From: Eledone cirrhosa
Taxonomy: Eukaryota
DNA: 64,000 nucleotides
NCBI GenBank assembly: GCA_964016885.1
Contig: OZ024747.1
Location: 29,202,001 to 29,266,000 of the forward strand
Direction of reading: 5' to 3'
Part shown: positions 1-22,410 of the stretch, piece after piece
Layout: the number at the start of each line of letters is the position of its first letter
Position numbering within the stretch: position 1 is the stretch's first letter
Translations under genes and position numbers: made by a program
The notes under the pieces: generated by a model
Seen by the model: the letters and a program-made list of their open reading frames with translations, nothing else
Told to the model about the DNA's origin: nothing
Database searches by the model: none

Positions 1-2127
1 GAGGCGAGGTGTTGCGAAAAGCCGATAACAGCCGCTGAAGTACGGGAGGCAATGACTGGCTGCACAAGGGGTAAATCGCCTGGTTTGGATGGTCTGCCCT
101 ATGAACTTTACGTACAGATGCCAGACTTGTTCGGAGGCCTCTTGGCGGACGTCTACTGCAACTGGCAACAGAACGGGAGAATTCCCAGTTCTGTGAGCCG
201 AGGAGCGGTGGCACTGCTGAGAAAGGATCCGAACAAGGGGGATAACATAGACAATTTCCGGCCCATAACTCTGCTAAACACAGAGTTTAAGATTTTGGCC
301 AAGGTGCTAGCAAAGAGGTTGGCGCTTGTCGTTGGTGGTCTGGTGGGAGAGGCGCAGACATGCGCCATTCCCGACAGATCCATCCACGACAACCTCCACC
401 TCATGCGATACATCGTAGAGAGGGTAGCTAGGGAACCTGGCACGGGTGGGTCCTTGATCAATTTAGATCAGTCGAAAGCTTTCGATAGGGTCGACCATCG
501 TTACCTAGCGGCAGTCCTGAGGGCGGCTGGCTTTGGGCCCGTCTTCAGAGGCTGGATCGCTGCCATGCACAGCGACATCTGCTCTGTGGTGAGAGTGAAC
601 GGTCACCTGTCGGAACCGTTCAACATCATGCGCTCGGTCCGCCAAGGATGTCCCCTCTCGTCCCTCTTGTACGTATTGACTCTCGAGCCATTACTGCACA
701 AACTGGAGACGTTGAGGGGAGTCCCGCGCGAACTAGGATGCGGAAGATCCGTGTCAGCATATGCGGACGATGTCACCGTAGTGGTGTCGAACGCCAAACA
801 CATCGAGGCGATCGGCACTACACTAAGAGAATACGAAGCGGTGACAGGAGCAATGATCAACCAGGAAAAGTCAGTGGGCCTGCAGCTCGGCACCTGGAGA
901 GGCAGGTCCATGCCGTCCAACAGCGTCGTCGGGCGCTGGACGGACGGACCGGTTAAATTGCTAGGGGTCTGGTTCGGTCCGGACCTCCAGACGGACAAAA
1001 ACTGGGACGAGGTGACGAGCAGGGTGGCTTCTCTCACCCAGAAATGGGCGGAGAGGAAGCTATCCCTGAAAGGTCGAGCGGAGGTGGCTAACGCGTACAT
1101 CGCGTCTGTCATCTGCTACCGCCTAACCGTCGTACCTTGTCCTAAGCCTCGCCTGACTGCGCTGGAGCGTTTGCTCTTTCGCTTTTTGTGGAAGGGACGT
1201 GCTCCGATGGTCAGGCGGTCCATCTGTTGTCAACACCCGCTACGTGGAGGGCTGGGCATGCCGTGGCTGATGATGCGCAGGCACGCGCTCAGGCTACGAC
1301 ATCTCCACCTCTTCCTCGACGGTGATCAGGTGTGGTCGCCGTTTGCTAGACGCGTTTTTCCCCAGCTCGTTTCCTTGACGGAGCTGCAGTCCTGGGTCAA
1401 GCGAAGACCGAGAGGGAGCGCCTGGAGACTGGAATGTCTTCAGGCGCTCACAGCCCTCGACCAATCGGGCAATGTGATCGGTGGAAACTCCACCTCGGCG
1501 TTCTATAGAGGATTAGTGGAGGGGAAGAGCGACGACGTACTTGGGGAAACTCTAGGCGTCGACGAAAATCAACTAGCCAATCTCTTCGGAAGAACTTTCG
1601 GGCCGGGGCCTATGGACAACTTCCAGAAATCTCTGGCCTGGCAGTGCTACCGAGGAGCCTTGCCAGTTCGGGATAAACTCTACAGGCATGGAGGTGCCGT
1701 CAGCCGGGCATGTCCGAGATGCGCGCAGGGCGACGAAACCGTCCTGCACGCACTCGTCCAGTGTCCGAAAATTGCTGACTTGTGGGTTTATGTCGAACAC
1801 CTGCTGTCGCGTTTAGGACGGATCCGGCTATCATCTGAGTCCATCGTGAGGATTGCCCCGCCCTCCTCCTTTAGCCGGGAAGGGCAGGCAGTTTTTATCT
1901 GCCTGGTGGCCATGGCGAAAGAGATAGTATGGTGGACACGTTTGAAAGGGCTGAAGACGAGCACTTACCTCTTCGGTGATGCTCTGATTGACTTTTTCAA
2001 ATTTCATTTGAAAAGGAAAATCAGAGTAGAGAGGGAAGTGCTCTCTTCCCAGCATTTTGTTGAAAGATGGGTGAGAGAAGCAAGAATGGCCCGAGTGAAT
2101 GGGCCTACTCTGAGCATATATCTGTAA
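1..2127 (+). CDS. Tx1-type ORF2, partial (reverse transcriptase plus C-terminal zinc-binding region)
   Basis: The frame is open from base 1. Motifs KSPGLDG, FRPITLLN, DQSKAFDRV, RQGCPLS, AYADD and CPRC-x8-H-x4-C are present. Confidence 0.93.
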   Translation, partial: EARCCEKPITAAEVREAMTGCTRGKSPGLDGLPYELYVQMPDLFGGLLADVYCNWQQNGRIPSSVSRGAVALLRKDPNKGDNIDNFRPITLLNTEFKILAKVLAKRLALVVGGLVGEAQTCAIPDRSIHDNLHLMRYIVERVAREPGTGGSLINLDQSKAFDRVDHRYLAAVLRAAGFGPVFRGWIAAMHSDICSVVRVNGHLSEPFNIMRSVRQGCPLSSLLYVLTLEPLLHKLETLRGVPRELGCGRSVSAYADDVTVVVSNAKHIEAIGTTLREYEAVTGAMINQEKSVGLQLGTWRGRSMPSNSVVGRWTDGPVKLLGVWFGPDLQTDKNWDEVTSRVASLTQKWAERKLSLKGRAEVANAYIASVICYRLTVVPCPKPRLTALERLLFRFLWKGRAPMVRRSICCQHPLRGGLGMPWLMMRRHALRLRHLHLFLDGDQVWSPFARRVFPQLVSLTELQSWVKRRPRGSAWRLECLQALTALDQSGNVIGGNSTSAFYRGLVEGKSDDVLGETLGVDENQLANLFGRTFGPGPMDNFQKSLAWQCYRGALPVRDKLYRHGGAVSRACPRCAQGDETVLHALVQCPKIADLWVYVEHLLSRLGRIRLSSESIVRIAPPSSFSREGQAVFICLVAMAKEIVWWTRLKGLKTSTYLFGDALIDFFKFHLKRKIRVEREVLSSQHFVERWVREARMARVNGPTLSIYL

Positions 2128-2387
2128 ATTAAAGGTGGAAAACTGGGAGAGGGCACTTGCCTTGGTGGTCAGGGTCATTGTGGCTTTTTACTGGGCTTTC
2201 TCCACAAATGTCCCTCCGAAGTCTCCCCCCTATTGGGGAATTTTTCATTGTTATTTTCATTGTTATTTTTGTTACATCCTCTGTTTTTGTTTTTTACACG
2301 CAGAAATGCCCATTTGTACCGTCCTGCATTGTCCTGCACTGTCCTTAATGTCTACTTTATGTAAACCCTTGTGGTTAATAAAGAAAT
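1..2387 (+). mobile_element. L1/Tx1-clade non-LTR retrotransposon, copy 1 (3' part; begins before the window)
   Basis: Near-identical to 5953-8322 (offset 5952). It has an RT ORF, a 3' UTR with AATAAA, and then an (ATT)n tract. Confidence 0.93.
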
Positions 2388-2388
2388 C

Positions 2389-2430
<42 letters not shown>
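2388..2430 (+). repeat. (ATT)n microsatellite between Tx1 copies
   Basis: Read directly from sequence; one ATT>AGT interruption. Confidence 0.95.
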
Positions 2431-2638
2431 GGCGACCTACGTAGTAAATCGTATCATCGTGAGCTCCGCAAAGGTCTGTTATTTCCGTTTGTTAAAAATT
2501 GCCATTTATGGAAAATTTTATTGTTAACTGTTTATAAGCACACGTACATTGTTTTCCAAAAAGGACACCCAAAAAGATTGGGGCCTTGTGCCCAAAATTT
2601 TAACTTTTATTATTATCCAAAAATTTCTTTGAAAAAAA

Positions 2639-4625
2639 ATGGCTAATTCCCCTCTGCACGAAGCAGCTGAAAGCCTTCCTCACAAAATAACACCTCACAC
2701 CGACACCACCATTGTAAATGTTACTACGTTTGCCAACACAAAAAAAAATATAAGCAGTAGCAATATTTTAAATTTGTCTCAGGCAGACATTCATTTCCCG
2801 CCATTACCAATGACTGCAGGTGTTAAACCCTCCACCACCACCACCACCACCGCGACAACCACCACCACCACCACCACCGCGACAACAGAAACAAAAGAAG
2901 AAAAAAATAAATTAACTCGTGACGTCGAAATGAAATCAAGCAAAATGGACTCTTCCCCACCAAAGACGACTGACGTCACCACCACCACAACTGAAAATAA
3001 AATTAATATTAACGATAGCAACAACAACAACAATGACATTATAAAACCGACCCTCAGTTTCGCCATCGTAGCAAAACAATTCGAAGCGTTCACGGTAACA
3101 CAAGAAGATTTAGAAAATGCCAAACAAATGGTAAAGAAAGATGGGTACAGGGTCAGCCTCACCCCCACCTAATAAAATGGAGCATCGGCGCCTGTGCACC
3201 GTGTCGTATAGAACAATAAATGTAAAATCGCGCCGAGTGGAACGGGCATCCGAGTCCCAAATCCAAAAAGCTTTGGGACATGTGTGGGCAAGAAAAACTC
3301 ACATCAGACGTGGGCAAAAGTATGGAACCGTGGATGTGTTCTTTGAAACACCAGAGGAGGCTAGAGAACACTCCATGGCCCCATTAAAAAGTGACGACCT
3401 CACACTCGTCCCAAGCTATTGTGGCCAGAGACTCGTAAAGATCAAGGTGACCCACGTTCCACCGGCCATCGAAATTCCCTGGCTAATAGCGGCTGTCCTC
3501 GCCGGCATCGAAGCCAACACGAAAATAATAGCAGTAGCAAAAGAAAAGCAGGAAAACTGGTCCGGATCTGGGATGGAGCTCCTGATCCAAGCGGACCAAA
3601 AAAGCATTGAGGAGATCCCAGAGGTAATAGACCTCACTGACGGCAGCCACCTCACGGTAATTGTCGAGGGCAGAAGACCTAGGTGTGTCGTTTGTGGTGA
3701 AGGAACCCACCTAAGGGCTTTCTGCCCTCAGGCTAAAAGGTTGAGGCCACCTCTCCTACCCACCCCAGTGACACAACCATCAACACCACCAGTAGCAGAG
3801 ATGGCAGCAACAACTGTAGCAGCAACAACAGAAGCAACTATAACAGCAACAACCCCAGCAACAGTAGCAAAACCAACACCACTACCACCACCAGCAAAAC
3901 CAACACCACCACCACCCAACGCTTCAGAACTAGCACCAGCGCCTACACCATCCACCACACCACAACCAAAACTAACGGCTGTGGAGGATTTTCCACTCCC
4001 CGGCCTATCACAACTGGAGACAGATTGTGACAACGAGGAGTGGGAAACGATATCCGGAAAAAAAAAAAGAAACCAAAAAAGAAAAAATTCTCTTCCTTCC
4101 CCCTCCAAAAACAAAATACAGAGGGAAACAAATAAACTAAGAAACAAAAAAGTTAGGACAGATATGCCACCATCCACACCAGCATCACCAACCCCATCAA
4201 CCCAAACACCAACACCATCACCATCATTATCCCCAGCACCACCATCACCTACACCACAAAAGTCACCAAAATGCGAAACAGAAACAAACCCACAACAAAC
4301 GCAAACAAAACAAAACAACCAAAACGATACACACTACGCAGCATTAAATTTGAACAACAAGCAATTATTACACTACATCCAACACAACACCAGCATCACA
4401 GAAAAAGACTACACAACAACCCCAAAATTCACACCACCTCCACACATACAAATCACTCGCATCACACAGAAAACGTACATGACACTAAAACAAAAATTCC
4501 CCAAAGACATCGGAGACTTCCGACAAGCACTCTCCAGGAGGATTTATAAGGACATCCTTCCTGAGGAGGCCACAAGCAGTGAAAAGGATGGAAAAGCCGT
4601 CCTTCCCCTACGAGAAGTAAGGTAA
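2639..4625 (+). CDS. Tx1 ORF1 (gag-like nucleic-acid-binding protein), split by a +1 frameshift near 3162-3170
   Basis: ORFs 2639-3172 and 3141-4625 overlap. The downstream part has RRM-like segments (YGTVDVFFETPEEA; VKIKVTHVPP), a CCHC knuckle CVVCGEGTHLRAFC, and Pro/Thr-rich and basic tails. Confidence 0.85.
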
Positions 4626-4659
4626 GTGGTCTTTCCCATCTTTTCCACTCCTTTTCAAC

Positions 4660-7600
4660 ATGACCTCACTCAGAATAGGCAGCATAAATGCGCGTGGCTT
4701 GGGGTCGTCATGGAAGCAGGGCCACCTGCTCAACGACCTCAGGTCACTAAACATAGATGTAGTGGCCATCAGCGAGACCAGAATCTCCGAAGCACAGGCT
4801 TTCGCACCGATCTTCGGCGGCTACGATGTGTACGCATCTCCCAGCCGTCCGGGATCGGGGGGAGGAGTTGCTGTGCTTTTTCGGAGAGGTTTGGATCTTG
4901 CCATACGGGCCATCTTCCTGGACCCAGAAGGTAAGTTGGTGGTGCTGGACGTGACCAGCGGAGACGGGCAAGCTTTCAGGTTAGTGGCCGTCTATGCCCC
5001 GACAGGAGCAGGGCGGCCTGATTTCTTCCGGCGTCTGGAGACCTTTCTTGGAACGTCCCGCTCTTTAGTGTTAGTGGGCGACTGGAACGGGATCTTAGAT
5101 GCACGCTGGGATTGTGTGGGATTAGTGGATAGGGAAGGAGGGTGCAAGAGTCTCACCAACCTGCTCAGACGTTTTGAACTGTCTGACAGGTACCGAATGG
5201 ATTTCCCGAATGTACCAATGTGGACTTGGACAAATCGCATAGGGTCATCCAGATCATATCTAGATAGAGTATTTTGTAGGGAAATAGATAGGTCTAGCAT
5301 AGGCTGTCCACAATTCAAGATAGTCAGCTACACGGACCACAAATTCGTGATCTGTGTACTTGACTTAGATAGGCTTCATAGACGAGGACCCGGCTACTGG
5401 AAGTTAAACGCGTCCTTACCAGCGCGCAAGGCTTACAGAGACCGGATTAGCGAACTAGTTAAGCGGGCGTTGACGGGGGCCATCGTCAACAACAAGTGGT
5501 GGTTAGCTCTGAAAAGAGCAATTAGAATAGAGTCCATTAGGTTTAGTAAGACTTTAGCAATAGAGAAAAATAGAGCAGAGGGAGAATTAGTTAGAAAATT
5601 AGATGAGGCGCTTAGCAAAGGCATCGCGACCGACGTACTTGCGGCGAAATTGGCCCTTGACCAATTCTTCAATGCAAAGCACGAAGGCTGCGTTGTCAGA
5701 GCTAGGGTGCGTGCTCTCAGACACGAGGGGACGAAAGCCGTTCAATGGGCCCGAGTGGCGGAGGCGCGTCGTGGCAACAAAGCCACGATCCGGTCTTTGG
5801 TGGACCACGACGGGCGCATGCTACTCGATCCCGGGCAAATGTGTGAAGCTTTTCAGCGACACTTCGCTCAACTGTTCGGGGGCAGTGGCGGGCCGGATCG
5901 AGGGATGGACTTTAGTGTCTACCTCGACGGACTGCCGCGGCTTTCGGCCACTGAGGCGGAGTGTTGCGAAAAGCCGATAACAACCGCTGAAGTACGGGAT
6001 GCAATGACTAGTTGCACAAGGGGTAAATCGCCTGGTTTGGATGGTCTGCCCTATGAACTTTACGTACAAATGCCAAACTTGTTCGGAGGCCTCTTGGCGG
6101 ACGTCTACTGCAACTGGCAACAGAACGGGAGAATTCCCAGCTCTGTGAGCCGAGGAGCGGTGGCGCTGCTGAGAAAGGATCCGAACAAGGGGGATAACAT
6201 AGATAATTTTAGGCCCATAACTCTGCTAAACACAGAGTTCAAGATTTTGGCCAAGGTGCTAGCAAAGAGGTTGGCGCTTGTCGTTGGTGGTCTGGTGGGA
6301 GAGGCACAGACATGCGCCATTCCCGACAGATCCATCCACGACAACCTCCACCTCATGCGATACATCGTAGAGAGGGTAGCTAGGGAACCTGGCACGGGTG
6401 GGTCTTTGATCAATTTAGATCAGTCGAAAGCCTTCGATAGGGTCGACCATCGTTACCTAACGGCAGTCCTGAGGGCGGCTGGCTTTGGGCCCGTCTTCAG
6501 AGGCTGGATCGCTGCCATGCACAGCGACATCTGCTCTGTAGTGAGAGTGAACGGTCACCTTTCGGAACCGTTCAACATCATGCGCTCGGTCCGCCAAGGA
6601 TGTCCCCTCTCGTCCCTATTGTACGTATTGACTCTCGAGCCATTACTGCACAAACTGGAGACGTTGAGGGGGGTCCCGCGCGAGCTAGGATGCGGAAGAT
6701 CCGTGTCAGCATATGCCGACGATGTCACCGTAGTGGTGTCGAACGCCAAACACATCGAGGCGATCGGCACTACACTAAGAGAATACGAAGCGGTGACAGG
6801 AGCAATGATCAACCAGGAAAAGTCAGTGGGCCTGCAGCTCGGCACCTGGAGAGGAAGGTCCATGCCGTCCAACAGCGTCGTCGGGCGCTGGACGGACGGA
6901 CCGGTTAAATTGCTAGGGGTCTGGTTCGGTCCAGACCTCCAGACGGACAAAAACTGGGACGAGGTGACGAGCAGGGTGGCTTCTCTCACCCAGAAATGGG
7001 CCGAGAGGAAGCTATCCCTGAAAGGTCGAGCGGAGGTGGCTAACGCGTACATCGCGTCCGTCATCTACTACCGCCTGACCGTCGTACCTTGTCCTAAGCC
7101 CCGCCTGACTGCGCTGGAGCGTTTGCTCTTTCGCTTCTTGTGGAAGGGACGCGCTCCGATGGTCAGGCGGTCCATCTGCTGTCAACACCCGCTACGTGGA
7201 GGGCTGGGCATGCCGTGGCTGATGATGCGCAGACACGCGCTCAGGCTACGACATCTCCACCTCTTCCTCGACGGTGATCAGGTGTGGTCGCAGTTTGCAA
7301 GACACGTTTTTCCCCAGCTCGTCTCCTTGACGGAGCTGCTGTCCTGGGTCAAGCGAAGACCGAGAGGGAGCGCTTGGAGACTGGAATGTCTTCAGGCGCT
7401 CACAGCCCTCGACCAATTGGGCAATGTGATCGGTGGAAACTCCACCTTGGCGTTCTATAGGGGATTAGTGGAGGGGAAGAGCGACGACGTACTTGGAGAA
7501 ACTCTAGGCGTCGACGAAAATCAACTAGCCAATCTCTTCGGAAGGACTTTCGGGCCGGGGCCTATGGACAACTTCCAGAAATCCCTGGCCTGGCAGTGCT

Positions 7601-8079
7601 ACCGAGGAGCCTTGCCAGTTCGGGATAAACTCTACAGGCATGGAGGTGCCGTCAGCCGGGCATGTCCGAGATGCGCGCAGGGCGACGAAACCGTCCTGCA
7701 CGCACTCGTCCAGTGTCCGAGCATTGCTGACTTGTGGGTTTATGTCGAACACCTGCTGTCACGTGTAGGACGGATCCAGCTATCAGCTGAGTCCATCGTG
7801 AGGATTGCCCCGCCCCCTTTTTTTAGCCTGGAAGGGCAGGCAGTTTTTATCTGTCTGGTGGCCATGGCGAAAGAGATAGTATGGTGGACACGTTTGAAAG
7901 GGCTGAAGACGAGCACTTACCTCTTCGGTGATGCCCTGATTAACTTTTTCAAATTTCATTTGAAAAGGAAAATCAGGGTAGAGAGGGAAGTGCTCTCTTC
8001 CCAGCATTTTGTTGAAAGATGGGTGAGAGAAGCAAGTATGGCCCGAATGAATGGGCTTTCTCTGAGTATGTGTCTGTAA
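4660..8079 (+). CDS. Tx1 ORF2, 1139 aa: apurinic-like endonuclease + reverse transcriptase + zinc-binding domain
   Basis: APE motifs SINARG, SETR, VYAP, GDWN, LDRV and TDH; RT motifs QGCPLS and YADD; C-terminal CPRC..H..C. The ORF is uninterrupted. Confidence 0.96.
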   Translation: MTSLRIGSINARGLGSSWKQGHLLNDLRSLNIDVVAISETRISEAQAFAPIFGGYDVYASPSRPGSGGGVAVLFRRGLDLAIRAIFLDPEGKLVVLDVTSGDGQAFRLVAVYAPTGAGRPDFFRRLETFLGTSRSLVLVGDWNGILDARWDCVGLVDREGGCKSLTNLLRRFELSDRYRMDFPNVPMWTWTNRIGSSRSYLDRVFCREIDRSSIGCPQFKIVSYTDHKFVICVLDLDRLHRRGPGYWKLNASLPARKAYRDRISELVKRALTGAIVNNKWWLALKRAIRIESIRFSKTLAIEKNRAEGELVRKLDEALSKGIATDVLAAKLALDQFFNAKHEGCVVRARVRALRHEGTKAVQWARVAEARRGNKATIRSLVDHDGRMLLDPGQMCEAFQRHFAQLFGGSGGPDRGMDFSVYLDGLPRLSATEAECCEKPITTAEVRDAMTSCTRGKSPGLDGLPYELYVQMPNLFGGLLADVYCNWQQNGRIPSSVSRGAVALLRKDPNKGDNIDNFRPITLLNTEFKILAKVLAKRLALVVGGLVGEAQTCAIPDRSIHDNLHLMRYIVERVAREPGTGGSLINLDQSKAFDRVDHRYLTAVLRAAGFGPVFRGWIAAMHSDICSVVRVNGHLSEPFNIMRSVRQGCPLSSLLYVLTLEPLLHKLETLRGVPRELGCGRSVSAYADDVTVVVSNAKHIEAIGTTLREYEAVTGAMINQEKSVGLQLGTWRGRSMPSNSVVGRWTDGPVKLLGVWFGPDLQTDKNWDEVTSRVASLTQKWAERKLSLKGRAEVANAYIASVIYYRLTVVPCPKPRLTALERLLFRFLWKGRAPMVRRSICCQHPLRGGLGMPWLMMRRHALRLRHLHLFLDGDQVWSQFARHVFPQLVSLTELLSWVKRRPRGSAWRLECLQALTALDQLGNVIGGNSTLAFYRGLVEGKSDDVLGETLGVDENQLANLFGRTFGPGPMDNFQKSLAWQCYRGALPVRDKLYRHGGAVSRACPRCAQGDETVLHALVQCPSIADLWVYVEHLLSRVGRIQLSAESIVRIAPPPFFSLEGQAVFICLVAMAKEIVWWTRLKGLKTSTYLFGDALINFFKFHLKRKIRVEREVLSSQHFVERWVREASMARMNGLSLSMCL

Positions 8080-8322
8080 ATTAAAGGTGGAAAACTGGGA
8101 GAGGGCACTTGCCCTGGTGGTCAGGGCCACTGTGGTCTTTTAATGGGCTTTCTCCACAAATGTCCCTTGGAAGTCTCCCCCCTATTGGGGAATTTTTCTT
8201 TGTTATTTTATTTCAACCTCTGTTTTTTTACACGCAGAAATGCCCATTTGTACCGTCCTGTATTGTCCTGTACTGTCCTTAATGTCTACTTTATGTGAAC
8301 CCTTGTGGTTAATAAAGAAAAC

Positions 8323-8347
8323 ATTATTATTATTATTATTATTATTA
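8323..8347 (+). repeat. (ATT)n tract at the tail-to-tail Tx1/Dong junction
   Basis: Read directly from sequence. Confidence 0.95.
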
Positions 8348-11300
8348 CAGTTGCATTTATCTTGCTTTATGTTCATACGAGTTATCACCAAGTCACAACC
8401 AGTGACCTCAAGAGACAACAAGGTCCGCCATGTTCAAGAAAGAACATACATATTCACACATGCATCTTTAGTGTTTAGACTTGTGATGTACTTATATTGA
8501 CAGAATCTTCCTTAGTATATGGGCAGTTCCCATTAGTACTATCTTTTGTATTTCTCCTATACGCGGGTTTCCTGGGATTTGCGATAAGTAATCATTAGAC
8601 CCCTTAGGTATCATTCCCAGAGCGCCTACAACCACTGGTATTGTTTTAGTTCTCAATTTCCACATTTTTCCAACTTCTATCTCCAGGTCCTTATACTTGC
8701 TCAATTTTTCAAATGTTTTTATAGATACATTCTTGTCTATTGGAACAGACATATCAATTAGCAGGCATACCCTCTTTTGAAAGTCTTTCAATATTATATC
8801 AGGTCTGTTTGCATCTATTTTTCGGTCTGTTTGGATGCTAAAGTTCCACAAGATTGAGATGTGATCTTTTTCAAGTATGGGAGGTGGTTGATGCTCCCAC
8901 CAATTCTTTTGATGGGGCAGATCAAAATGCTTACACATTATCCAATGTATGTATTGTGCAGCTCTGTCATGCCTGTTTAGGTATTCGGTTGGAGCTATAG
9001 GACTGCACATTGAAATTATATGGTCAATGGTCTCTGGTTGTTTTTTGCATACACGGCATAATGGGCTGCACCCATTTTTTATTATGTTGGCTTGGTAATT
9101 TTTTGTTGGCAGACACTGATCTTGTGCTGATATAATCAGTCCTTCAGTTTCCGATTTCAGTCCAGAGGATGCCAACCACTGATGGGTTAAAGTTTTGTCA
9201 ACATCAGGATTGTTAGCTCGCTCTGGGTATTTTCCATACAGAGGCTTTTCTTGCCATTTCTTAGCCAGTTTCTGTAGCAGTTCTTTCTTTGCAGTTACTT
9301 TTACCTGCTTTGCTTTTTCTGTGTTTTCCATTTCAGCAGTAAATGGGACTTCTCAAATTTGTAGTCCATTACTGTATCTTTGTGCATCTTTTGTAATGGA
9401 ATATGATCTTTTGATGCTTTCGTGTTTCAAAACGAGTTTGATCATCCAATCATGTGATTCCCTTAGATATGTAGATAATCCAATTGTTGCAGTTTTCAAC
9501 GCAATGTCTAACTGGATTAACCCACGTCCTCCTTCTTTCAGAGGGAGATATATTCTATCTATATCTGCCTTAGGGTGATGCATTCTGTGCATGGTTAAGA
9601 ATTTTCGAATTTTTGTATCGAGCCTACGGATCTCTGTGCTTGACCAGTTGATGACATTGTAACTGTAGGTTACTACTGGTATGGCGAGCGTGTTTATGGC
9701 ATCGATCCTATTCCTTGCATTCAATTCCGTTCTTAAGATTGCTCTTACTCTGCGGTAACATTCCTTTCTTATCCTTTCCCTCATTGTCGAGTGCTTGATT
9801 CCGTCTCCTTCACAAACACCTAGATATTTGTAAGTTTTTTCTTGATCAAGTTCTCTTATCACGTTCCCCCGATCAAGATTAATGTCTGAACTCTTCAGCA
9901 GCTTTCCTCTGGTGAACGTTGCTTTGGCGCATTTGTCTAGTCCAAACTCCATTTTAATGTCATCACTGAACTACTCCACAGTGGATAATAGCCCTTGCAA
10001 TTGTTCATCATCTTTTGCAAATAGTTTCAGGTCATCCATGTAGAACAAGTGATTAATGATTTTGTCATAAACTTTATATCCATGTTTTGTTTCATTGAGC
10101 ATTTTACTTAATGGTATAAGTGCGATGCAGAATAAAAGCGGTGATAAAGAGTCACCCTGAAAAATTCCACAATTAATATTAACTTCTCCAGCTTCCAGTG
10201 ATTTTGTTTCACTATTCAAAAGGAGTGTCGTTTTCCATGTCTTCATACTGAATGACAAAAACCTCCTGACAACGGGGGATATTTTGAAAATCTCTAAACA
10301 TTTTTCAATCCAACTGTGTGGCAAACTATCGAATGCTTTTTTATAATCTATCCAAGCAATCGATAGATTTTTGTGTCTATTATGACAATCTTCCGGTATC
10401 ATTTTGTTAACCAAAAGCTGATACTTACAGCCATATGAGCCTCGTTTACACCCTTTCTGCTCAATGGGAAATAGGTCATTTGTTATCAGGTGGTCATATG
10501 TATATTCAGTTAGGACTGATGTTAAAATTTTATACATTGTGGTCAAGCAAGTTATCGGTCTGTAATTTTGGGGATTGTTTGTCTCATCATTCTTCGGGAG
10601 CAGGAATGTAATGCCGTTAACTAGCCATGATGGTATCTTTTCTGGCTCCTTACCTATTTCATTGTAAAGTTGGGCTAACAGCTCACGAGACTCTGTGAAG
10701 GCATTTATCCAAAAGTTTTGTATTTTGTCTTTTCCTGGGGATTTCCATTTGCTGGATTTTCTTAGAGCCAAGCGCAACTGTTCAACTGTTATATTTTCCC
10801 ATGTTTGTTCCTCAAGGTGAGCTGTATCTTTCATTTGTCTGTCTATCCATGGGGCATGTATGTTATGAACTTTTTCTTCGGCCCAGATCTTTTCCCAGAA
10901 TTCTTGCACTTCCTCCTTGGGTGGTATTGATTTAGCAGTTATTGTTGACTTACCAATTTTTCTGTAGAAGTTTCTTTGGTTGTTTTTGAACATATTATTG
11001 TCCTTATAGAATCTAGATCGTTTTTCAAAGCGCCTTACACGAGCAGCTTTGGCCGACACTTTTTGCTTGATTATTTCTATCAGCATGTCTATGTCACTTG
11101 TTGATTTTATACTGTACTTTCTTTTCAATTTTCTAAGTTTAGTTTGTTTAACATGTTCACCTACTTTATAGTTTGTTAAAATTTCTATGTCAGATCGGAG
11201 AAGGTTTATTTGGCGATTGATGTTCTCTTGTCAAGTAGATTTCTTGTGGGAATTCCTTTGTTTTTTCATCTTCACTCCACATAAGTGAGTGGTGACTTTA

Positions 11301-13299
11301 GCCGATGCATAATAGAGATGATTTAAATCAGTAATGTTTAGTTTGTTTGTGATGATAATGTTTTTGAGAATTATGTTAGTCTTGTGTATTATCTTTTGGT
11401 TCTGTTTGGAGTTCTGGATCTTAGGGAGGGTGTCTCGTTGCCCCATGTCAGATTATTTCATTTTCATCCATTCGATCATAATTTCATCCTTCAAGTTGGC
11501 AAGTTCATTCTCATTCATTTCTTTATCATTTACGATCTCATTATTTTCATTTGGAGTTTCATCTTGAGCATGCACTCCCTCCACTTTTTCGATCCTTTCT
11601 TTAATTTGTTCTGTTGCCAGTGATTCCGCCCCAACCCTGGGATTCGAAGAGTTACAATTTACCTCGTTTTCACTGACACATGTTTCATTTTCCCTTCGCT
11701 GACTTTGTGCTAATAGCTTGATCTGATCAATTTCTATATCAGTTAGTAACTTTTTTTTTACAATATTTCTTCGTATATTGGCTAGTTTGTTACTGTCAAT
11801 ATAGCCTCTGTTTTCGGGATGTTTCTTTTTCCAGTTGATATATGTCTGTTCTGTATTCGATGTATTTGATGGGTAGTACATGGCAGTGTAGAAAGCCTCA
11901 AGGACTTCTTTATTATCTTCCCTTGACCATTTTTCTCTCTTTTTCTTTGGATTTCTTGGTGGTGAGCATGGAGGGCCAACAGTAGGAGTATTCCGGTTAT
12001 GGGAGATCTCCAGCTCCGAAGTGATGGGATGGTTTGAACCATTAGCTGATTTTTCGACCCCAGTCTGGTTCCTCTTTGAGGGACGCGGCCCTTTTTTACC
12101 CGGGTGACGGCCGATCCGGTATGAGATTTTATCATTAGACATTTACTTTATTTTGTCGCGTTTTATCCTTATCCGCCAAGGGGTAATCATTTCGAAACCA
12201 CTTCTAGAACGAGTGTCAACCAAGACTAGAGGGGTCGTTCTTCCCTAGAGACACGGCTATTCCCCGCCGGCCGCCATCGCGGTATTTCTTGGTCACGGGG
12301 TTTTCTTTTTTGTTGTTTTTTAAAATTGTTATTATCATGAGTGGTTCCTTAATGTGAGCATTGCGTGGCTTAAGAATGAAATTATTAATAATTGTCTCCA
12401 CTCCAGGCACAAGACCAGCAATTACCCAGTGTATTACAATAATATAATATACTTTTTGCTGAAGTTGCCTGTTATTGTTGTTGGCTATGTCGGTGGTGGT
12501 GCTGGGGCTTTTTATATTGTTGGTGGGGAAGGGGGAGCCAGCAGTGCCATAGTTGTTGACGTTTGGCCGGTGGCCGGGTCACTAAGTCAATCTATTTATA
12601 TCTTTTGCTAGCCTCTCCCTTGTCTAGTGATACCGCCACCTTCCCCTTTCTTAAGTTAACAGGGGAATAGTGGTGGTAGCAATGAAGGAGTGGTGGCGGT
12701 GGTGATGGGATAGTGGTAGCAATGATAGATGGAGTGGTGGCGGCGGTGGCGTTGTCGTTACTGAGTTTTGTTGAATCGACTAGTTTTGTTTGATCTGTAG
12801 TATATATGCGTTTGTGTCGCGTATGTTTAATATATGTGTTGACATATTCCCTTAATATTGGAATTAAACATTTTGTTAAAACTTGAGACAATAATAATAG
12901 TAATTATTATTATGATGCTGGGATTGGTGGTGGTGAAATTGCCGTTATCTGGCTGTTATATTTAGTGTACACAGCGGGGTGATGGGGTAGGTGGTGTATC
13001 TAGTTTCTGGTGTTGGTGAAATTGCTGTTATTTGGCTGTTCTATATAGTGTAGACAGAGGGGGTTTCCTTCCATTTATAACCATTTTCTTTTTTGAATAT
13101 AAAATATATAATACAAAATTGAATATTTGAGCGATATAACAATATATTATGGATCCGAATTTTTATGAGACTTGATTCGGTGATTTATGCATCATTTGTA
13201 CTAAGAATTGTTATTTCACAATTGATTTAAATATGTTAAAAATCAAAAACTTACGGGAGCGATTTCATGACCTTCTACCACCACGTGCGTCATCTTCCC
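8348..13299 (-). mobile_element. R4/Dong-clade non-LTR retrotransposon (RLE type), copy 1, including a ~1.1 kb 5' leader
   Basis: Single disrupted ORF with RT and PD-(D/E)xK endonuclease. Bounded by (TAA)n, the established target of Dong. Paralogous to 13372-18532. Confidence 0.9.
8492..12142 (-). pseudogene. R4/Dong ORF (N-terminal Myb-like region, RT, CCHC, restriction-like endonuclease) with 4 in-frame stops and no frameshift
   Basis: ORF pieces 11453-12142, 11231-11446, 9971-11128, 9353-9952 and 8492-9331 are all in one frame. Motifs KWSREDN, FQGDSLSP, FYMDD, CRVC-x8-H-x4-C, RHD and RPDII..IDMSVP..KY. Confidence 0.9.

Positions 13300-13371
<72 letters not shown>
13300..13371 (+). repeat. 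(ATT)n microsatellite (~24 units) between Dong copies
   Basis: Read directly from sequence. Confidence 0.97.
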
Positions 13372-13372
<1 letters not shown>

Positions 13373-16300
13373 AGTTGCATTTATCTTGCTTTATGTTCAT
13401 ACGAGTTATCACAAAGTCACAACCAGTGACCTCAAGAGACAACAAGGTCCGCCATGTTCAAGAAAGAACATACATATTCACACATGCATCTTGAGTGTTT
13501 AGACTTGTGATGTACTTATATTGACAGAATCTTACTTAGTATATATGGACAGTTCCCATTAGTACTATCTTTTGTATTTCTCCTATACGCGGGTTTTCTG
13601 GGATTTGCGATAAGTAATCATTAGACCCCTTAGGTATCATCCCCAGAGCGCCCACAACCCCTGGTATTGTTTTAGTTCTCAATTTCCACATTTTTCCAAT
13701 TTCTATCTCCAGGTCCTTATACTTGCTCAATTTTTCAAATGTTTTTATAGATACATTCTTGTCTATTGGAACAGACATATCAATTAGCAGGCATACCCTC
13801 TTTTGAAAGTCTTTCAATATTATATCAGGTCTGTTTGCATCTATTTTTCGGTCTGTTTGGATGCTAAAGTTCCACAAGATTGAGATGTGATCTTTTTCAA
13901 GTATGGGAGGTGGTTGATGCTCCCACCAATTCTTTTGATGGGGCAGATCAAAATGCTTACACATTATCCAATGTATGTATTGTGCAGCTCTGTCATGCCT
14001 GTTTAGGTATTCGGTTGGAGCTATAGGACTGCACATTGAAATTATATGGTCAATGGTCTCTGGTTGTTTTTTGCATACACGGCATAATGGGCTGCACCCA
14101 TTTTTTATTATGTTGGCTTGGTAATTTTTTGTTGGCAGACACTGATCTTGTGCCGATATAATCAGTCCTTCAGTCTCCGATTTCAGTCCAGAGGATGCCA
14201 ACCACTGATGGGTTAAAGTTTTGTCAACATCAGGATTGTTAGCTCGCTCTGGGTATTTTCCATACAGAGGCTTTTCTTGCCATTTCTTAGCCAGTTTCTG
14301 TAGCAGTTCTTTCTTTGCAGTTACTTTTACCTGCTTTGCTTTTTCTGTGTTTTCCATTTCAGCAGTAAATGGGACTTCTCAAATTTGTAGTCCATTACTG
14401 TATCTTTGTGCATCTTTTGTAATGGAATATGATCTTTTGATGCTTTCGTGTTTCAAAACGAGTTTGATCATCCAATCATGTGATTCCCTTAGATATGTAG
14501 ATAATCCAATTGTTGCAGTTTTCAACGCAATGTCTAACTGGATTAACCCACGTCCTCCTTCTTTCCTAGGGAGATATATTCTATCTATATCTGCCTTAGG
14601 GTGATGCATTCTGTGCATGGTTAAGAATTTTCGAATTTTTGTATCGAGCCTACGGATCTCTGTGCTTGACCAGTTGATGACATTGTAACTGTAGGTTACT
14701 ACTGGTATGGCGAGCGTGTTTATGGCATCGATCCTATTCCTTGCATTCAATTCCGTTCTTAAGATTGCTCTTACTCTGCGGTAACATTCCTTCCTTATCC
14801 TTTCCCTCATTGTCGAGTGCTTGATCCGTCTCCTTCACAAACACCTAGATATTTGTAAATTTTTTCTTGATCAAGTTCTCTTATCACGTTCCCCCGATCA
14901 AGATTAATGTCTGAACTCTTCAGCAGCTTTCCTCTGGTGAACGTTGCTTTGGCGCATTTATCTAGTCCAAACTCCATTTTAATGTCATCACTGAACTGCT
15001 TCACAGTGGATAATAGCCCTTGCAATTGTTCATCATTTTTTGCAAATAGTTTCAGGTCATCCATGTAGAACAGGTGATTAATGGTTTTGTCATAGACTTT
15101 ATATCCATGTTTTGTTTCATTGAGCATTTTACTTAATGTGCGATGCAGAATAAGTGCGATGCAGAATAAAAGCGGTGATAAAGAGTCACCCTGAAAAATT
15201 CCACAATTAATATTAACTTCTCCAGCTTACAGTGATTTTGTTTCACTATTCAAAAGGAGTGTCGTTTTCCATGTCTTCATACTGAATGACAAAAACCTCC
15301 TGACAACGGGGGATATTTTGAAAATCTCTAAACATTTTTCAATCCAACTGTGTGGCAAACTATCAAATGCTTTTTTATAATCTATCCAAGCAATCGATAG
15401 ATTTTTGTGTCTATTATGACAATTTTCCAGTATCATTTTGTTAACCAGAAGCTGATCCTTACAGCCATATGAGCCTCGTTTACACCCTTTCTGCTCAATG
15501 GGAAATAGGTCATTTGTTATCAGGTGGTCATATGTGTATTCAGTTAGGACTGATGTTAAAATTTTATACATTGTGGTCAAGCAAGTTATCGGTCTGTAAT
15601 TTTGGGGATTGTTTGTCTCATCATTCTTCGGAAGCAGAAATGTAATGCCGTTAACTAGCCATGAAGGTATCTTTTCTGGCTCCTTAACTATTTCATTGTA
15701 AAGTTGGGCTAACAGCTCATGAGACTCTGTGAAGGCATTTATCCAAAAGTTTTGTATTTTGTCTTTTCCTGGGGATTTCCATTTGCTGGATTTTCTTAGA
15801 GCCAAGCGCAACTGTTCAACTGTTATATTTTCCCATGTTTGTTCCTCAAGGTGAGCTGTATCTTTCATTTGTCTGTCTATCCATGGGGCATGTATGTTAT
15901 GAACTTTTTCTTCGGCCCAGATCTTTTCCCAGAATTCTTGCACTTCCTCCTTGGGTGGTATTGATTTAGCAGTTATTGTTGACTTACCAATTTTTCTGTA
16001 GAAGTTTCTTTGGTTGTTTTTGAACATATTATTGTCCTTATAGAATCTAGATCGTTTTTCAAAGCGCCTTATACGAGCAGCTTTGGCCGACACTTTTTAC
16101 TTGATTATTTCTATCAGCATGTCTATGTCACTTGTTGATTTTATACTGTACTTTCTTTTCAATTTTCTAAGTTTAGTTTGTTTAACATGTTCACCTACTT
16201 TATAGTTTGTTAAAATTTCTATGTCAGATCGGAGAAGGTTTATTTGGCGATTGATGTTCTCTTGTCAAGTAGATTTCTTGTGGGAATTCCTTTGTTTTTT

Positions 16301-18532
16301 CATCTTCACTCCACATAAGTGAGTGGTGACTTTAGCCGATGCATAATAGAGATGATTTAAATCAGTAATGTTTAGTTTGTTTGTGATGATAATGTTTTTG
16401 AGAATTATGTTAGTCTTGTGTATTATCTTTTGGTTCTGTTTGGAGTTCTGGATCTTAGGGAGGGTGTCTCGTTGCCCCATGTCAGATTATTTCATTTTCA
16501 TCCATTCGATCATAATTTCATCCTTCAAGTTGGCAAGTTCATTCTCATTCATTTCTTTATCATTTACGATCTCATTATTTTCATTTGGAGTTTCATCTTG
16601 AGCATGCACTCCCTCCACTTTTTCGATCCTTTCTTTAATTTGTTCTGTTGCCAGTGATTCCGCCCCAACCCTGGGATTCGAAGTGTTACAATTTACCTCG
16701 TTTTCACTGACACATGTTTCATTTTCCCTTCGCTGACTTTGTGCTAATAGCTTGATCTGATCAATTTCTATATCAGTTAGTAACTTTTTTCTTACAATAT
16801 TTCTTCGTATATTGGCTAGTTTGTTACTGTCAATATAGCCTCTGTTTTCGGGATGTTTCTTTTTCCAGTTGATATATGTCTGTTCTGTATTCGATGTATT
16901 TGATGGGTAGTACATGGCAGTGTAGAAAGCCCCAAGGACTTCTTTATTATCTTCCCTTGACCATTTTTCTCTCTTTTTCTTTGGATTTCTTGGTGGTGAG
17001 CATGGAGGGCCAACAGTAGGAGTATTCCGGTTATGGGAGGTCTCCAGCTCCGAAGTGATGGGAAGGTTTGAACCATTAGCTGATTTTTCGACCCCAGTCT
17101 GGTTCCTCTCTGAGGGACGCGGCCCTTTTTTACCCGGGTGACGACCGATCCGGTATGAGATTTTATCATTAGACATTTACTTTATTTTGTCGCGTTTTAT
17201 CCTTATCCGCCAAGGGGTAATCATTTCGTGTTACCACTTCTAGAACGAGTGTCAACCAAGACTAGAGGGGTCGTTCTCCCCTAGAGACACGGCTATTCCC
17301 CGCCGGCCGCCATCGCGGAATTTCTTGGTCACGGGGTTTTCTTTTTGTTGTTTTTTAAAATTGTTATTATCATGAGTGGTTCCTTAATGTGAGCATTGCG
17401 TGGCTTAAGAATGAAATTATTAATAATTGTCTCCACTCCAGGCACAAGGCCAGCAATCACCCAGTGCATTACAATAATATAATATACTTTTTGTTGTAGT
17501 TGGCTGTTATTGTTGTTGGCTATGTCGGTGGTGGTGCCGGGGCTTTTTATATTGTTGGTGAGGAAGGGGTGAGCCAGCAGTCCCATAGTTGTTGATGTTG
17601 ACGTTTGGCCGGTGGCCAGGTCACTAAGTCAATCTATTTATATCTTTTGCAAGCCTCTCCCTTGTCTAGTGATACCGCCACCTTCTCCTTTCTCTCTCAA
17701 GTTAACAGGGGAATAGTGGTGGTAGCATTGAAGGAGTGGTGGCGGCGACGATGGGATAGTGGTAGCAATGATGGATGGGGTGGGGTGGTGGCAGCGGTGG
17801 CGTTGTGGTTACTGATATGTAGTATCTATGAGTTTGTGTTCGTATGTTTAATATATATTTTTATTATATTTTGTGTTGACATATTCCCGTAAAATTGGAA
17901 TTAAACATTTTTTTTAAATTTGAGACAATAATAATAGTAATTCTATAATGTGGTGGCAGCAGCCAGCGGGAAGATGTGGGAGACAGTAGCGGCGGTATCG
18001 ATACTGAGACAGTGGTGGTGGTGATGTCGATACCGAGGCAGTGGTGGTGGTGATGTGATCGTATTACTGTAGTGATGGTGTTGTAGCGGTGGTAGCAATG
18101 AAGGAGTGGTGGCGGCGGTGATGGGATAGTGGTGGTAATGATGGCAGTAGTGAGTGGTGGTGGTGAAATTGCCGTTATCTGGCTGTTGTGTTTAGTGTAC
18201 ACAGAGAGGTGATGGGGTAGGTGTTGTATCTAGTTTCTGGTGTTGGTGAGATTGGTGTTGTTTGGCTGTTCTATATAGCGTAGACAGAGGAGGGGGGGGG
18301 TTATTCTTCCATTTATAGCCATTTTCTTTTTTGAATATACAATGTACAATACAAAGTTGAATATTTGAATATTTGAGCCTTATAACAATATATTTTGGGT
18401 CCGAATTTTTTTGGGCTCAAGCCGGATGCTTTACGTAGCATTTGTACTAAGAGTTGTTATTTCACAAATGATTTAAATATGTTAAAAATTCAAAACTTAC
18501 GGGAGCGATTTCATGACCTTCCGCCACCTCGT
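13372..18532 (-). mobile_element. R4/Dong-clade non-LTR retrotransposon, copy 2
   Basis: Same 3' end as copy 1 (cagttgcatttatcttg...). Same ORF remnants, with a longer and more diverged 5' leader. Bounded by (TAA)n. Confidence 0.9.
13518..17176 (-). pseudogene. R4/Dong ORF, copy 2, with stops and frameshifts
   Basis: Three stops are shared with copy 1. Private lesions: stops near 16099 and 15227, a local duplication at ~15139-15170, a 1-bp deletion near 14824, and a 2-bp insertion near 13541. Confidence 0.88.
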
Positions 18533-18570
18533 AATTATTATTATTATTATTATTATTACTATTATTATAT
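18533..18570 (+). repeat. (ATT)n microsatellite
   Basis: Read directly from sequence. Confidence 0.95.
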
Positions 18571-18572
18571 AA

Positions 18573-18800
18573 GGGCGGTGCATTGGCAGTATCGGTTGAG
18601 CGCCGGACAACATGCTTTGTAGCAGAGAGTCACGGCCCTTTACGTTCTGCGTTCAAATCCCGCCGAGGTTAGCTTTGCCTTTCATCCTTACCGGATCGAT
18701 AAAATAAAGTACCAGTAACACACTGGTGTCGATTTAATCGACTTTCCCCTCCCCTCAAATTGCTGGCCTTGTGCCAAAATCAGAAACCATTATTATTATT
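18573..18800 (+). mobile_element. tRNA-derived SINE with (ATT)n tail
   Basis: Pol III A-box TGGCAGTATCGG (~18584) and B-box GTTCAAATCC (18651-18660). The body matches minus-strand relics at 27626-27740 and 28370-28557. Confidence 0.85.
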
Positions 18801-21406: not shown

Positions 21407-22225
21407 TTAGGGAGAAGTGTTTAGACGGGGTCCGTATTTGTTAATGAAGTAAGATTCCTTGCTGATGCGCTGGGTGTGGGTGGCATTATCTTTAAATTTG
21501 TAGAGGGGAAAGATTCTGAAGTTGGGATGATTTTGGGCGGCACAGGTATCAATGTGTTCACTCAGTGGTATTTTCCTGTATTCCCGTATTTTAATTTGGG
21601 ATCTATGGACAGTCATGCGTTGGCGGAGGTTGTTTTTGGTCTGGCCTATGTATTGTTCTCGACAACCTGAACAAGTTAATACATATATTAGATTTTCCGA
21701 TGCACATGTGAAATTGTGTTTTACTATAAAACGTTGTCCATCTTTGAAATAGAATTCCGAACCCTCTATTAGGTTGATGCAAATTCCACAGATGGGTCTA
21801 TCGCATATTTTTACTGTGGGTTTCGTTGTTGTGGTTGGCAGTACTTTGGCATGTGTTAAGATGTTTTTCATTGACTTGGATTGTCTTTTGCTCTTTATGA
21901 TATCGTGTGTTCGTAGAATTTGGTTCATTCTATGGTCCTTTTTCAATACAGGGATGTTCTGGAGGATGGTGTCAAAGGCCTCATTGTTGAGGGGGTTGTG
22001 TGTGGAGATGTATGGAAGAGCTTTTAGTTTCGGTTGATTTACTTTAGGGTGTCTAAGGTCCTGGGTACTGAGTTTTAGGGCACGTTGGATTCCATTGTCA
22101 ATTAGTGATGCATGGTAGTCCCTGCCTATGAGTGTGTCCTTTAGTTCTTGTAGCCGTAAGTAACATGTGTTTTTATTGGAGACTATAGTACAGATTCTCT
22201 TGGCTAAGTTGTAAGGAATATTAAT
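21407..22225 (-). pseudogene. Penelope-like (probably Neptune-type) ORF C-terminus: end of RT thumb, Cys-rich linker, GIY-YIG endonuclease
   Basis: NIPYNLAKRICTIVS, ALPYISTHNP, CDRPICGIC, NLIYVLTCSGCREQYIGQT, LRQRMTVH and KESYFI..LN. The predicted N-terminus (22226-22348) is minisatellite translation. Confidence 0.88.
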
Positions 22226-22410
22226 TTTATACATACACACGTATTTATACATACACACGTATTTATACATACACATATTTATACATACACACGTATTTAT
22301 ACATACACACCTATTTATACATACACACGTATTTATACATACACACATTTATAGTATAGATATATAGATATATATATAGATATATAGATATATATAAGTA
22401 TAGATATATA
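22226..22410. repeat. 18-bp minisatellite (ATTTATACATACACACGT) plus AT-rich tract; inverted copy at 24575-24845
   Basis: Tandem units are visible, and the reverse complement is at 24575-24845. Confidence 0.88.

What the first reader, a model, noticed from the sequence alone, without database searches (positions are those of the whole stretch)
1..18800. (TAA)n-anchored retroelement array: two unrelated LINE clades in opposite orientation plus a SINE
Seen: five consecutive elements (Tx1+, Tx1+, Dong-, Dong-, SINE+) are separated only by (ATT)n tracts, all on the same strand (2388, 8323, 13300, 18533, 18789), and none is nested inside another. Known: Dong (R4 clade, restriction-like endonuclease) targets TAA repeats, and Tx1-clade families target other microsatellites (Kibi TC, Koshi TTC). 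TRAS and SART insert into insect TTAGG in opposite orientations. Inference: this APE-type Tx1 family may be TAA-specific, a target I do not recall for Tx1. The two nucleases would then have converged on opposite strands of one microsatellite, and each insertion would leave target sequence for the next, growing the array.
Basis: partly seen in the sequence, partly recalled or inferred. Interest (0 to 1): 0.8.

Follow-up and report, generated by a model that had tools for sequence, protein, structure and literature searches.

The report
Two jumping genes share one microsatellite
Two unrelated kinds of retrotransposon, plus a short hitch-hiking element, sit in (ATT)n repeats throughout this animal genome in opposite, fixed directions, and each insertion likely duplicates the repeat so that long mixed chains like this one keep growing.

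Summary
Confirmed and larger than reported. The window holds the right end of a 52-kb chain of 11 elements joined by (ATT)n. The L1/Tx1-type (APE) LINE is target-specific genome-wide. 84 of 85 full-length 5' ends of three subfamilies follow an ATT tract, 83 in exact ATT|G register; the random background is 0.04%. Two R4/Dong-type (RLE) families use the same repeat in the opposite polarity. ATT is a pre-existing target, not just a tail: a tract inside an RTE element is empty in 33 of 39 copies and filled in 6, all in the predicted direction. The SINE shares a compensated 3' hairpin with the APE LINE and makes ~16-17-bp duplications starting ATTA. The five tandem copies are independent insertions, not local duplicates. 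The same 5' flank appears in 4 of 4 other organisms checked. Limits: truncated copies often lack upstream ATT; nick positions are inferred; Tx1 versus L1 clade was not resolved; Repbase and two key papers were unreadable. Verdict: new variant of a known kind (site-specific LINEs in microsatellites; TRAS/SART-like opposite polarity, here with two nuclease folds).

The parts
1..2388 (+). 3' part of an APE-type LINE, subfamily B (fifth of five tandem B copies; it starts 3.6 kb left of the window). ORF2 ends at 2127; 3'UTR ends AATAAA-GAAATC without poly(A).
2389..2430 (+). (ATT)14 spacer with one AGT unit; target and duplication remnant
2431..8322 (+). Full-length APE-type LINE, subfamily A (5.9 kb), starting with G directly after ATT
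2633..4625 (+). ORF1 of subfamily A in two frames (2633-3172, 3135-4625; frameshift near 3160-3175); one CCHC knuckle; resembles ZCCHC3-type RNA-binding/CCHC proteins
   Evidence: lead only; Pfam gave no significant match
4660..8079 (+). ORF2, 1139 aa, open: APE (PF03372), RT (PF00078), zf-RVT (PF13966); best solved relative human L1 ORF2p, E 8e-53
8298..8310 (+). 3' stem-loop (4-bp stem, CUUGU loop) shared with subfamilies B, C, D and with the SINE, with compensatory changes
8323..8347 (+). (ATT)8 spacer, tail-to-tail junction of the APE LINE and Dong
8348..13299 (-). R4/Dong-type LINE (family 1), full length; single ORF 12142-8492 broken by a frameshift and two stops; RT plus C-terminal CCHC and PD..D-type RLE
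13300..13371 (+). (ATT)24 spacer ((TAA)24 on the Dong strand)
13372..18532 (-). Second Dong family-1 copy, 97% identical over 4.56 kb. Its 5'-most 380 bp are only 86% identical and read like the 5' end of Dong family 2 (likely recombinant).
18534..18568 (+). (ATT)~11 spacer, head-to-head junction of Dong and the SINE
18575..18788 (+). 214-bp SINE (7235 first-look candidates); 3' end shared with the APE LINEs (hairpin 18764-18776); flanked by a ~17-bp duplication
18789..18800 (+). (ATT)4, right copy of the SINE's duplication and right end of the array

Best explanation
An L1/Tx1-type LINE with an AP-like endonuclease and two R4/Dong LINEs with a restriction-like endonuclease occupy the same (ATT)n/(AAT)n microsatellite genome-wide in fixed, opposite directions, likely because each nicks and primes on a different strand first and likely leaves a 15-18-bp duplication of the repeat that serves as the next target. 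Shown: the flanks, the polarity, the exact ATT|G register, pre-existing empty targets, the independence of tandem copies, and the two nuclease types. Inferred: target-primed reverse transcription in which the APE enzyme first nicks the AAT strand at T^A and then the ATT strand 5-6 units away, while the RLE enzyme primes from the ATT strand. Also inferred: that the SINE is mobilised by the APE LINE through the shared 3' hairpin, with a looser target (ATTA plus A/T-rich DNA), and that slippage lengthens spacers afterwards.
For: Full-length 5' ends after an ATT tract: A 29 of 30, B 30 of 30, D 25 of 25; each set includes its query copy; 83 of 85 are exactly ATT|G. Copies picked by their 3' end only: of 36 extended, 34 reach a full-length 5' end and all 34 follow ATT. 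3' ends: 30 of 30 begin ATT. Dong1 5' flanks: 30 of 30 have (AAT)3+ on the sense strand and none ATT. Dong2: 18 of 20. Dong 3' ends: 42 of 44 and 50 of 51 AAT, none ATT (de-duplicated by sequence). Background 0.044%. RTE-internal tract: 33 of 39 non-query sites empty (median 27 nt) and 6 filled, all in the predicted polarity; the RTE resumes after the insert in 5 of the 6. Two young D insertions there add 15 and 18 nt over the empty median. Tandem spacers bottom out at 5-7 units. SINE duplications: median 16.5 bp in the 18 of 29 copies with a call; 23 of 29 junctions begin ATTA. One truncated LINE joins non-repeat target directly, with no tail (L048). Each of the five B copies is closest to a dispersed copy (0.15-0.6%), not to an array mate (0.4-1.35%). 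The ATT 5' flank is seen in 4 of 4 runs of other organisms. Hairpin: 23 of 24 cells paired, 3 of 4 pairs with two-sided change.
Against: 5'-truncated copies are less clean. A-type: 7 of 9 have upstream ATT. C-type: only 6 of 15 credible boundaries do (6 further boundaries dropped as low-complexity or internal junctions, 9 copies ran past the locus). In five non-ATT cases with a 3' end no duplication was found, so target-site deletion is assumed, not shown. The array's own leftmost element has no 5' ATT. One full-length A copy sits in non-repeat DNA (L002), at a site with microhomology to its first bases. L048 has a 27-bp duplication with ~20 extra bases, longer than the model. Junction registers are blurred by microhomology. 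Hits are the best-scoring 40 per search, so young copies are over-represented. The hairpins are not more stable than shuffles (z -0.1 to -1.4) and rest on six related sequences. No biochemistry.
Confidence: 0.85

Rival explanations
1. ATT is an element-made tail (3' slippage synthesis, like the I factor's TAA), and the elements merely insert into A/T-rich DNA, including each other's tails.
For: Every LINE 3' end is followed by ATT. 9 of 15 truncated C copies and the array's founder have ATT only on the 3' side. Flanks are often longer than a duplication explains, e.g. 10+14 units at an RTE site whose empty median is ~9. The SINE uses non-repeat sites.
Against: Full-length 5' ends have ATT regardless of the upstream neighbour, including unique DNA. 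The RTE tract exists empty in 33 of 39 copies. L048 and four SINEs with exact 16-17-bp duplications have no added tail. A tail cannot set the exact 5' register.
Confidence: 0.05
2. Same-family tandem runs (five B here; B and D triplets elsewhere) arise in single events, by reverse-transcriptase template jumping from one RNA to the next or by read-through multimeric RNA, rather than by repeated independent targeting.
For: Same-subfamily runs recur (D follows D in at least 5 of 25). L048 shows a short 3' fragment of another subfamily at a 5' junction.
Against: Mixed neighbours are as common. Head-to-head and tail-to-tail Dong/APE junctions cannot form this way. A read-through copy of one array would show array-like similarity, and the B copies do not. 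Jumping between RNAs of different source copies is not excluded.
Confidence: 0.08
3. The array is a local tandem duplication (unequal crossing-over) or an assembly artefact.
For: Five head-to-tail copies with a ~6.06-kb period, more than 99% alike.
Against: The copies differ by 21-58 nt and share variants with different dispersed copies. Spacers differ (8, 10, 11, 8, 9, 14 units). The same junction types recur on many contigs and in another organism's reads.
Confidence: 0.02

Closest known systems
Kibi, Koshi and crocodilian microsatellite-specific Tx1 families; Tx1-1_ACar
   Same: APE-type two-ORF LINEs inserted specifically into a simple repeat: (TC)n, (TTC)n, (TTCC)n/(TTTC)n (PMC4494074, passages and section 15; PMC3812793, passages) and telomeric repeat (PMC10088271, passages).
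   Different: The target here is (ATT)n, not named for a Tx1 in any passage seen. It is a cephalopod-type lineage with no named close relative, and the target is shared with RLE elements.
Dong (Bombyx), DongAg, DongBg; Rex6 (R4 clade)
   Same: RLE-type single-ORF LINE in TAA repeats (PMC3812793, PMC1635306, passages). The 5'-junction primer in PMC3774820 (passages) shows the same polarity: (TAA)n on the sense strand. Dong-R4 is known and recently active in octopus (PMC13282606, PMC9115989, passages).
   Different: Two families only 41% identical co-occur. 17 of 30 5' junctions carry a purine, mostly (GAA)n, run between target and element. They interleave with APE elements.
TRAS and SART in insect telomeric repeats
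   Same: Two LINE families in one tandem repeat in opposite orientations, forming arrays (PMC10088271, passages).
   Different: TRAS and SART are both R1-clade APE elements at telomeres. Here the partners have different nuclease folds and the target is a dispersed microsatellite.
SINEU / Tx1-Mar
   Same: A SINE sharing the target of a Tx1-type LINE with weaker specificity, often in tandem around a duplication (PMC4494074, passages).
   Different: Here the SINE also shares a 3' stem-loop with the LINE. Its head looks tRNA-like (A/B-box-like motifs by eye, recalled consensus; ARAGORN and Rfam found nothing). It may be one of the octopus SINEs of Ohshima and Okada 1994 (seen only as a reference entry).

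Membership tests
L1 group (L1 + Tx1 clades) | ORF2 with N-terminal AP-like endonuclease, RT and C-terminal zinc-binding region | tested here: met
   Pfam PF03372, PF00078, PF13966; human L1 ORF2p E 8e-53 over residues 5-856 versus R2 E 6e-21, RT only
L1 group (L1 + Tx1 clades) | Separate upstream ORF1 with nucleic-acid-binding (RRM/CCHC) motifs | tested here: met
   ORF1 with a CX2CX4HX4C knuckle in A, B, D; Atlas lead to ZCCHC3-type RBD/CCHC clusters; Pfam significant only for the sister family's knuckle
Tx1 clade | RT groups with Xenopus Tx1, Kibi, Koshi, Keno rather than L1 | tested here: inconclusive
   Quick RT tree of 90 rows (careful search unfinished; 7 candidates dropped for a short RT) has no named Tx1 reference; look-ups named none. 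A, B, D form a 100% clade sister to a cuttlefish-containing clade.
Tx1 clade | Sequence-specific insertion (typical, not universal) | tested here: met
   84 of 85 full-length 5' ends after ATT
Tx1 clade | Endonuclease cleaves the target in vitro | not testable with these tools
   needs purified protein
R4 clade (Dong) | Single ORF with RT and C-terminal CCHC plus restriction-like endonuclease | tested here: met
   Profile matches R2 proteins to their C-terminus, E 1e-52; model pLDDT 82 matches R2 structures, TM 0.58-0.67 for most; CCHC and PD..D motifs in the sequence
R4 clade (Dong) | Insertion in (TAA)n with TAA on the sense strand | tested here: met
   polarity as in the Bombyx Dong primer of PMC3774820
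R4 clade (Dong) | RT phylogeny with R4/Dong rather than R2, NeSL or HERO | not tested
   no named R4 or Dong protein among the 120 listed homologues; the clade label rests on architecture, target and recall
R4 clade (Dong) | 5' HDV-like ribozyme | tested here: inconclusive
   no Rfam match and no hit with a crude descriptor; both insensitive
tRNA-derived SINE partnered with a LINE | Short, high-copy, target-site duplication, 3' end shared with a LINE | tested here: met
tRNA-derived SINE partnered with a LINE | tRNA-derived head with pol III boxes | tested here: inconclusive
   ARAGORN none, Rfam none; box-like motifs by eye only

The most novel reading that the evidence does not exclude
This is an undescribed guild: at least four APE-type subfamilies, two RLE-type families and a SINE that converged on one trinucleotide repeat from opposite sides. 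They manufacture most of the long (ATT)n tracts of the genome (5 of 6 tracts of 6+ units in a random 200 kb touch a guild element) and build self-extending landing pads in several related species. It would be a cross-nuclease analogue of TRAS/SART away from telomeres, with a base-exact 5' junction.
Probability: 0.5. Interest if true: 0.72.

Novelty: new variant of a known kind. Interest (0 to 1): 0.58.

Why it matters
It adds a new target to APE-type site-specific LINEs and gives a matched pair of unrelated nucleases reading one repeat with opposite polarity. That is a direct test system for how target choice and first-strand choice evolve; a 44%-identical sister family with a different junction serves as contrast. 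It offers a concrete cause for transposon hotspots and for long ATT microsatellites in cephalopod-type genomes. Such arrays would also hide insertion polymorphism from short-read callers, which may bear on a report of low Dong activity in octopus (inference; PMC9115989 passages). The SINE-LINE hairpin names a likely mobiliser for an abundant SINE.

Tried and rejected
Local duplication or misassembly: rejected. Tail-only origin: rejected as the sole cause. Two 150-bp genome searches returned nothing because common words are skipped; longer queries worked. A single-sequence fold of the Dong C-terminus was useless (pLDDT 34) and its single-sequence PDB search was empty; an alignment fixed both. 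The first metagenome scan was empty; the second gave only distant relatives, 26-46%, whose flanks were not examined. Attempts to obtain named Tx1, Kibi, Koshi or Dong proteins failed. HDV-like ribozyme at 5' ends: nothing found. No RNA holder listed. The raw-read run X21 covered only a low-complexity patch. Earlier scan notes: none. Papers not held: Kojima and Fujiwara 2004, Fujiwara 2015, the Tx1L endonuclease paper, the Dong paper, Kojima's review, Ohshima and Okada 1994. Supplements of PMC4494074 were not readable; its Fig. 3, which lists Tx1 targets, is not held and could already name (ATT)n. Repbase could not be searched.
Full report
Observation. The + strand elements encode APE, RT and zf-RVT, closest among solved structures to human L1 ORF2p. 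The - strand elements encode an R2-like RT and a C-terminal domain. A 15-sequence profile aligns that domain to the end of R2 proteins, and its model (pLDDT 82) matches R2 structures. The two ORFs share only 22% identity, in RT alone. The host is a 3.0-Gb animal genome. I infer a coleoid cephalopod, probably an octopod, from named homologues (cuttlefish 50% in RT; a short Octopus match) and from the statement that R4-Dong is almost confined to cephalopods among molluscs (PMC10294476, passages).

The array is larger than the window. Neighbouring stretches show 11 elements over ~52 kb: a 5'-truncated C-type APE LINE, a truncated second Dong family (Dong2, 41% identical to Dong1), five B-type copies, the A copy, two Dong1 copies and the SINE. 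B differs from A in 5'UTR and ORF1 but has a 96%-identical ORF2. Three B copies have both ORFs open. The five B copies differ by 21-58 nt in ~6,025. Over the first 2 kb each is nearest to a copy on another contig (0.15-0.6%), not to an array mate (0.4-1.35%). They are therefore separate retrotransposition products.

Target specificity of the APE LINE. Each end search had 988-1,396 first-look candidates, of which the best 40 were scored and 25-30 fetched. Full-length 5' ends follow an ATT tract in 29 of 30 (A), 30 of 30 (B) and 25 of 25 (D, 75% identical to A in ORF2). 83 of the 85 are exactly ATT|G. To avoid choosing by the 5' end, I extended 36 of 40 copies chosen by their 3' end. 34 are full length and all follow ATT; one is clipped by 21 nt at a short ATT run; one is unresolved. 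The other four were short truncations. All 30 3' ends begin with ATT. In 200 kb of random genome the chance of 12 nt of pure ATT before a position is 0.044%. In four runs labelled as four other organisms, the contigs carrying the A 5' end continue into (ATT)n, one of them into the 3' end of another copy. Runs of 12 coded organisms hold at least a fifth of the ORF2 words (organism A may be the window's own species).

Opposite polarity of Dong. All 30 Dong1 5' ends have (AAT)3+ upstream on the sense strand and none has ATT. 11 join directly, 17 through a purine, mostly (GAA)n, run and 2 through short A/T gaps. For Dong2, 18 of 20 do. 3' ends are followed by AAT in 42 of 44 and 50 of 51. This is the polarity of Bombyx Dong, judged from the junction primer in PMC3774820 (passages).

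Target or tail. An RTE family carries an ATT tract in its 5' region, which gives a natural experiment. Of 39 non-query copies, 33 are empty (median 27 nt) and 6 are filled: one D-type LINE and one SINE fragment in the ATT direction, three Dong2 and one Dong1 reversed. The RTE resumes after the insert in five of the six. Two young D insertions at this site carry 45 and 42 nt of tract in total, 15-18 nt over the empty median. Spacers between tandem copies bottom out at 5-7 units. The SINE gives the same figure directly. 18 of 29 copies yield a duplication (median 16.5 bp; four exact at 16-17 bp with no added repeat), and 23 of 29 junctions start ATTA. One truncated LINE joins non-repeat target directly (L048). 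So ATT is a pre-existing target that insertion duplicates. Longer flanks (10+14 units in L150) show later slippage or some added repeat.

Results against a strict reading. Truncated copies are less clean: 7 of 9 A-type but only 6 of 15 C-type boundaries have upstream ATT (six further boundaries dropped as low-complexity or internal, nine copies ran past the locus). Several non-ATT junctions lie inside a neighbouring guild element. Of 14 copies extended, 9 had a recognisable 3' end, and in the five non-ATT cases followed by an ATT tract no duplication was found. This fits target-site deletion during 5' joining but does not prove it. The array's leftmost element is such a case. The single full-length exception (L002) sits where the host sequence continues with nearly the same bases as the element's start. 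L048 has a 27-bp duplication with an extra fragment, suggesting a template jump. All samples are biased to young, high-scoring copies.

The SINE. Its last ~25 nt align with those of A, B, C and D. A 4-bp stem around a CUUGU loop is kept in 23 of 24 cells with two-sided changes in 3 of 4 pairs, though it is not unusually stable and the six rows are related. With the shared polarity and the ATT-starting junctions, I infer that the APE LINE mobilises it, with a looser target, as for SINEU and Tx1-Mar (PMC4494074, passages).

Mechanism (inferred from junctions and established TPRT). The APE enzyme nicks the AAT strand at T^A and primes cDNA there on an RNA that ends a few bases after AATAAA. It then nicks the ATT strand 15-18 nt away, again at T^A, leaving 5-6 units on each side. 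The preference for T^A steps recalls L1 endonuclease (recalled, not tested). The RLE enzyme primes from the ATT strand. Each event turns one site into two, usable by either enzyme, so chains grow from within without nesting. A sister family 44% identical in ORF2 forms tandem arrays with a similar 3' end but no ATT repeat, so repeat targeting arose or was lost within this lineage.

Comparison and novelty. Microsatellite-specific Tx1 families (TC, TTC, TTCC/TTTC, telomere), TAA-specific Dong and opposite-orientation TRAS/SART arrays are all in print (PMC4494074, passages and section 15; PMC3812793, PMC1635306, PMC4640811, PMC10088271, passages). Octopus repeat papers list L1-Tx1 and Dong-R4 as abundant or recently active, without targets in the passages seen (PMC13282606, PMC8967140, PMC9115989). 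PMC3747384, PMC4758252 and PMC3531059 (passages) added nothing on an octopus SINE-Tx1 pair. Searches found no ATT-specific Tx1 and no shared APE/RLE target. But Repbase, Kojima and Fujiwara 2004, Fujiwara 2015 and the target-listing figure and supplements of PMC4494074 could not be seen, so prior mention cannot be excluded. Membership: L1 group met; Tx1 clade unresolved for lack of named references; Dong-like by architecture and target, without a tree. Verdict: real, well supported, a new variant of a known kind; interest 0.58.

Noticed in passing
L061-L090 (Dong1 5' junctions); also L463, L468: 17 of 30 Dong1 5' junctions carry a variable purine run, mostly (GAA)n up to ~25 units, between the (TAA)n target and the element's start, which itself begins with GAA units. 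Possibly slippage during second-strand joining that seeds new GAA microsatellites.
   Followed up: partly
L380-L415, L420 (CAXXMW01 contigs); L421: A GTDB genome labelled Arenicella holds many contigs of tandem copies (period ~6.4-6.8 kb) of a eukaryotic LINE 44% identical to this ORF2: likely mis-binned animal DNA. Its junctions have no ATT repeat but a conserved ~250-bp segment with a TATA-like box, unexplained.
   Followed up: partly
P0254, P0405-P0414: Limpet (Patella caerulea) has a run of neighbouring locus tags encoding near-identical 1153-aa L1/Tx1-type ORF2s, suggesting another tandem array.
   Followed up: no
L221-L249, L254-L263: An RTE family (2489 first-look candidates) carries a variable (ATT)n then poly(T) in its 5' region and acts as a mobile carrier of the target; 6 of 39 copies were already hit.
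   Followed up: yes
window 2431-4620 versus L129:6363-8640 and L253: Subfamilies swap 5'UTR/ORF1 and 3'UTR modules around a shared ORF2 (A and B 5' halves occur with either 3' end); all three full-length starts are G directly after ATT.
   Followed up: partly
window 17943-18532: The second Dong copy has a ~200-bp extra segment and a 5' end reading like Dong family 2; the two families share related 5'UTRs despite 41% protein identity.
   Followed up: partly
window 21407-22348 (-): 313-aa ORF with a GIY-YIG domain (Pfam E 2e-7), likely a Penelope-like element fragment.
   Followed up: no
window ~29100-64000: A ~35-kb satellite of mixed ~50-76-bp units with higher-order periods; also a 41-bp x46 tandem at 25680-27552.
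   Followed up: no
window 4700-7700 in public runs: Near-identical ORF2 words are held by runs of 12 coded organisms at shares of 0.21-0.92, implying a recent shared burst among close species or transfer; not resolved.
   Followed up: partly
L200-L219: 3 of 20 random 10-kb stretches held a 95%+ copy of the APE LINE, so copy number is probably far above the ~1,300 candidates per search.
   Followed up: no
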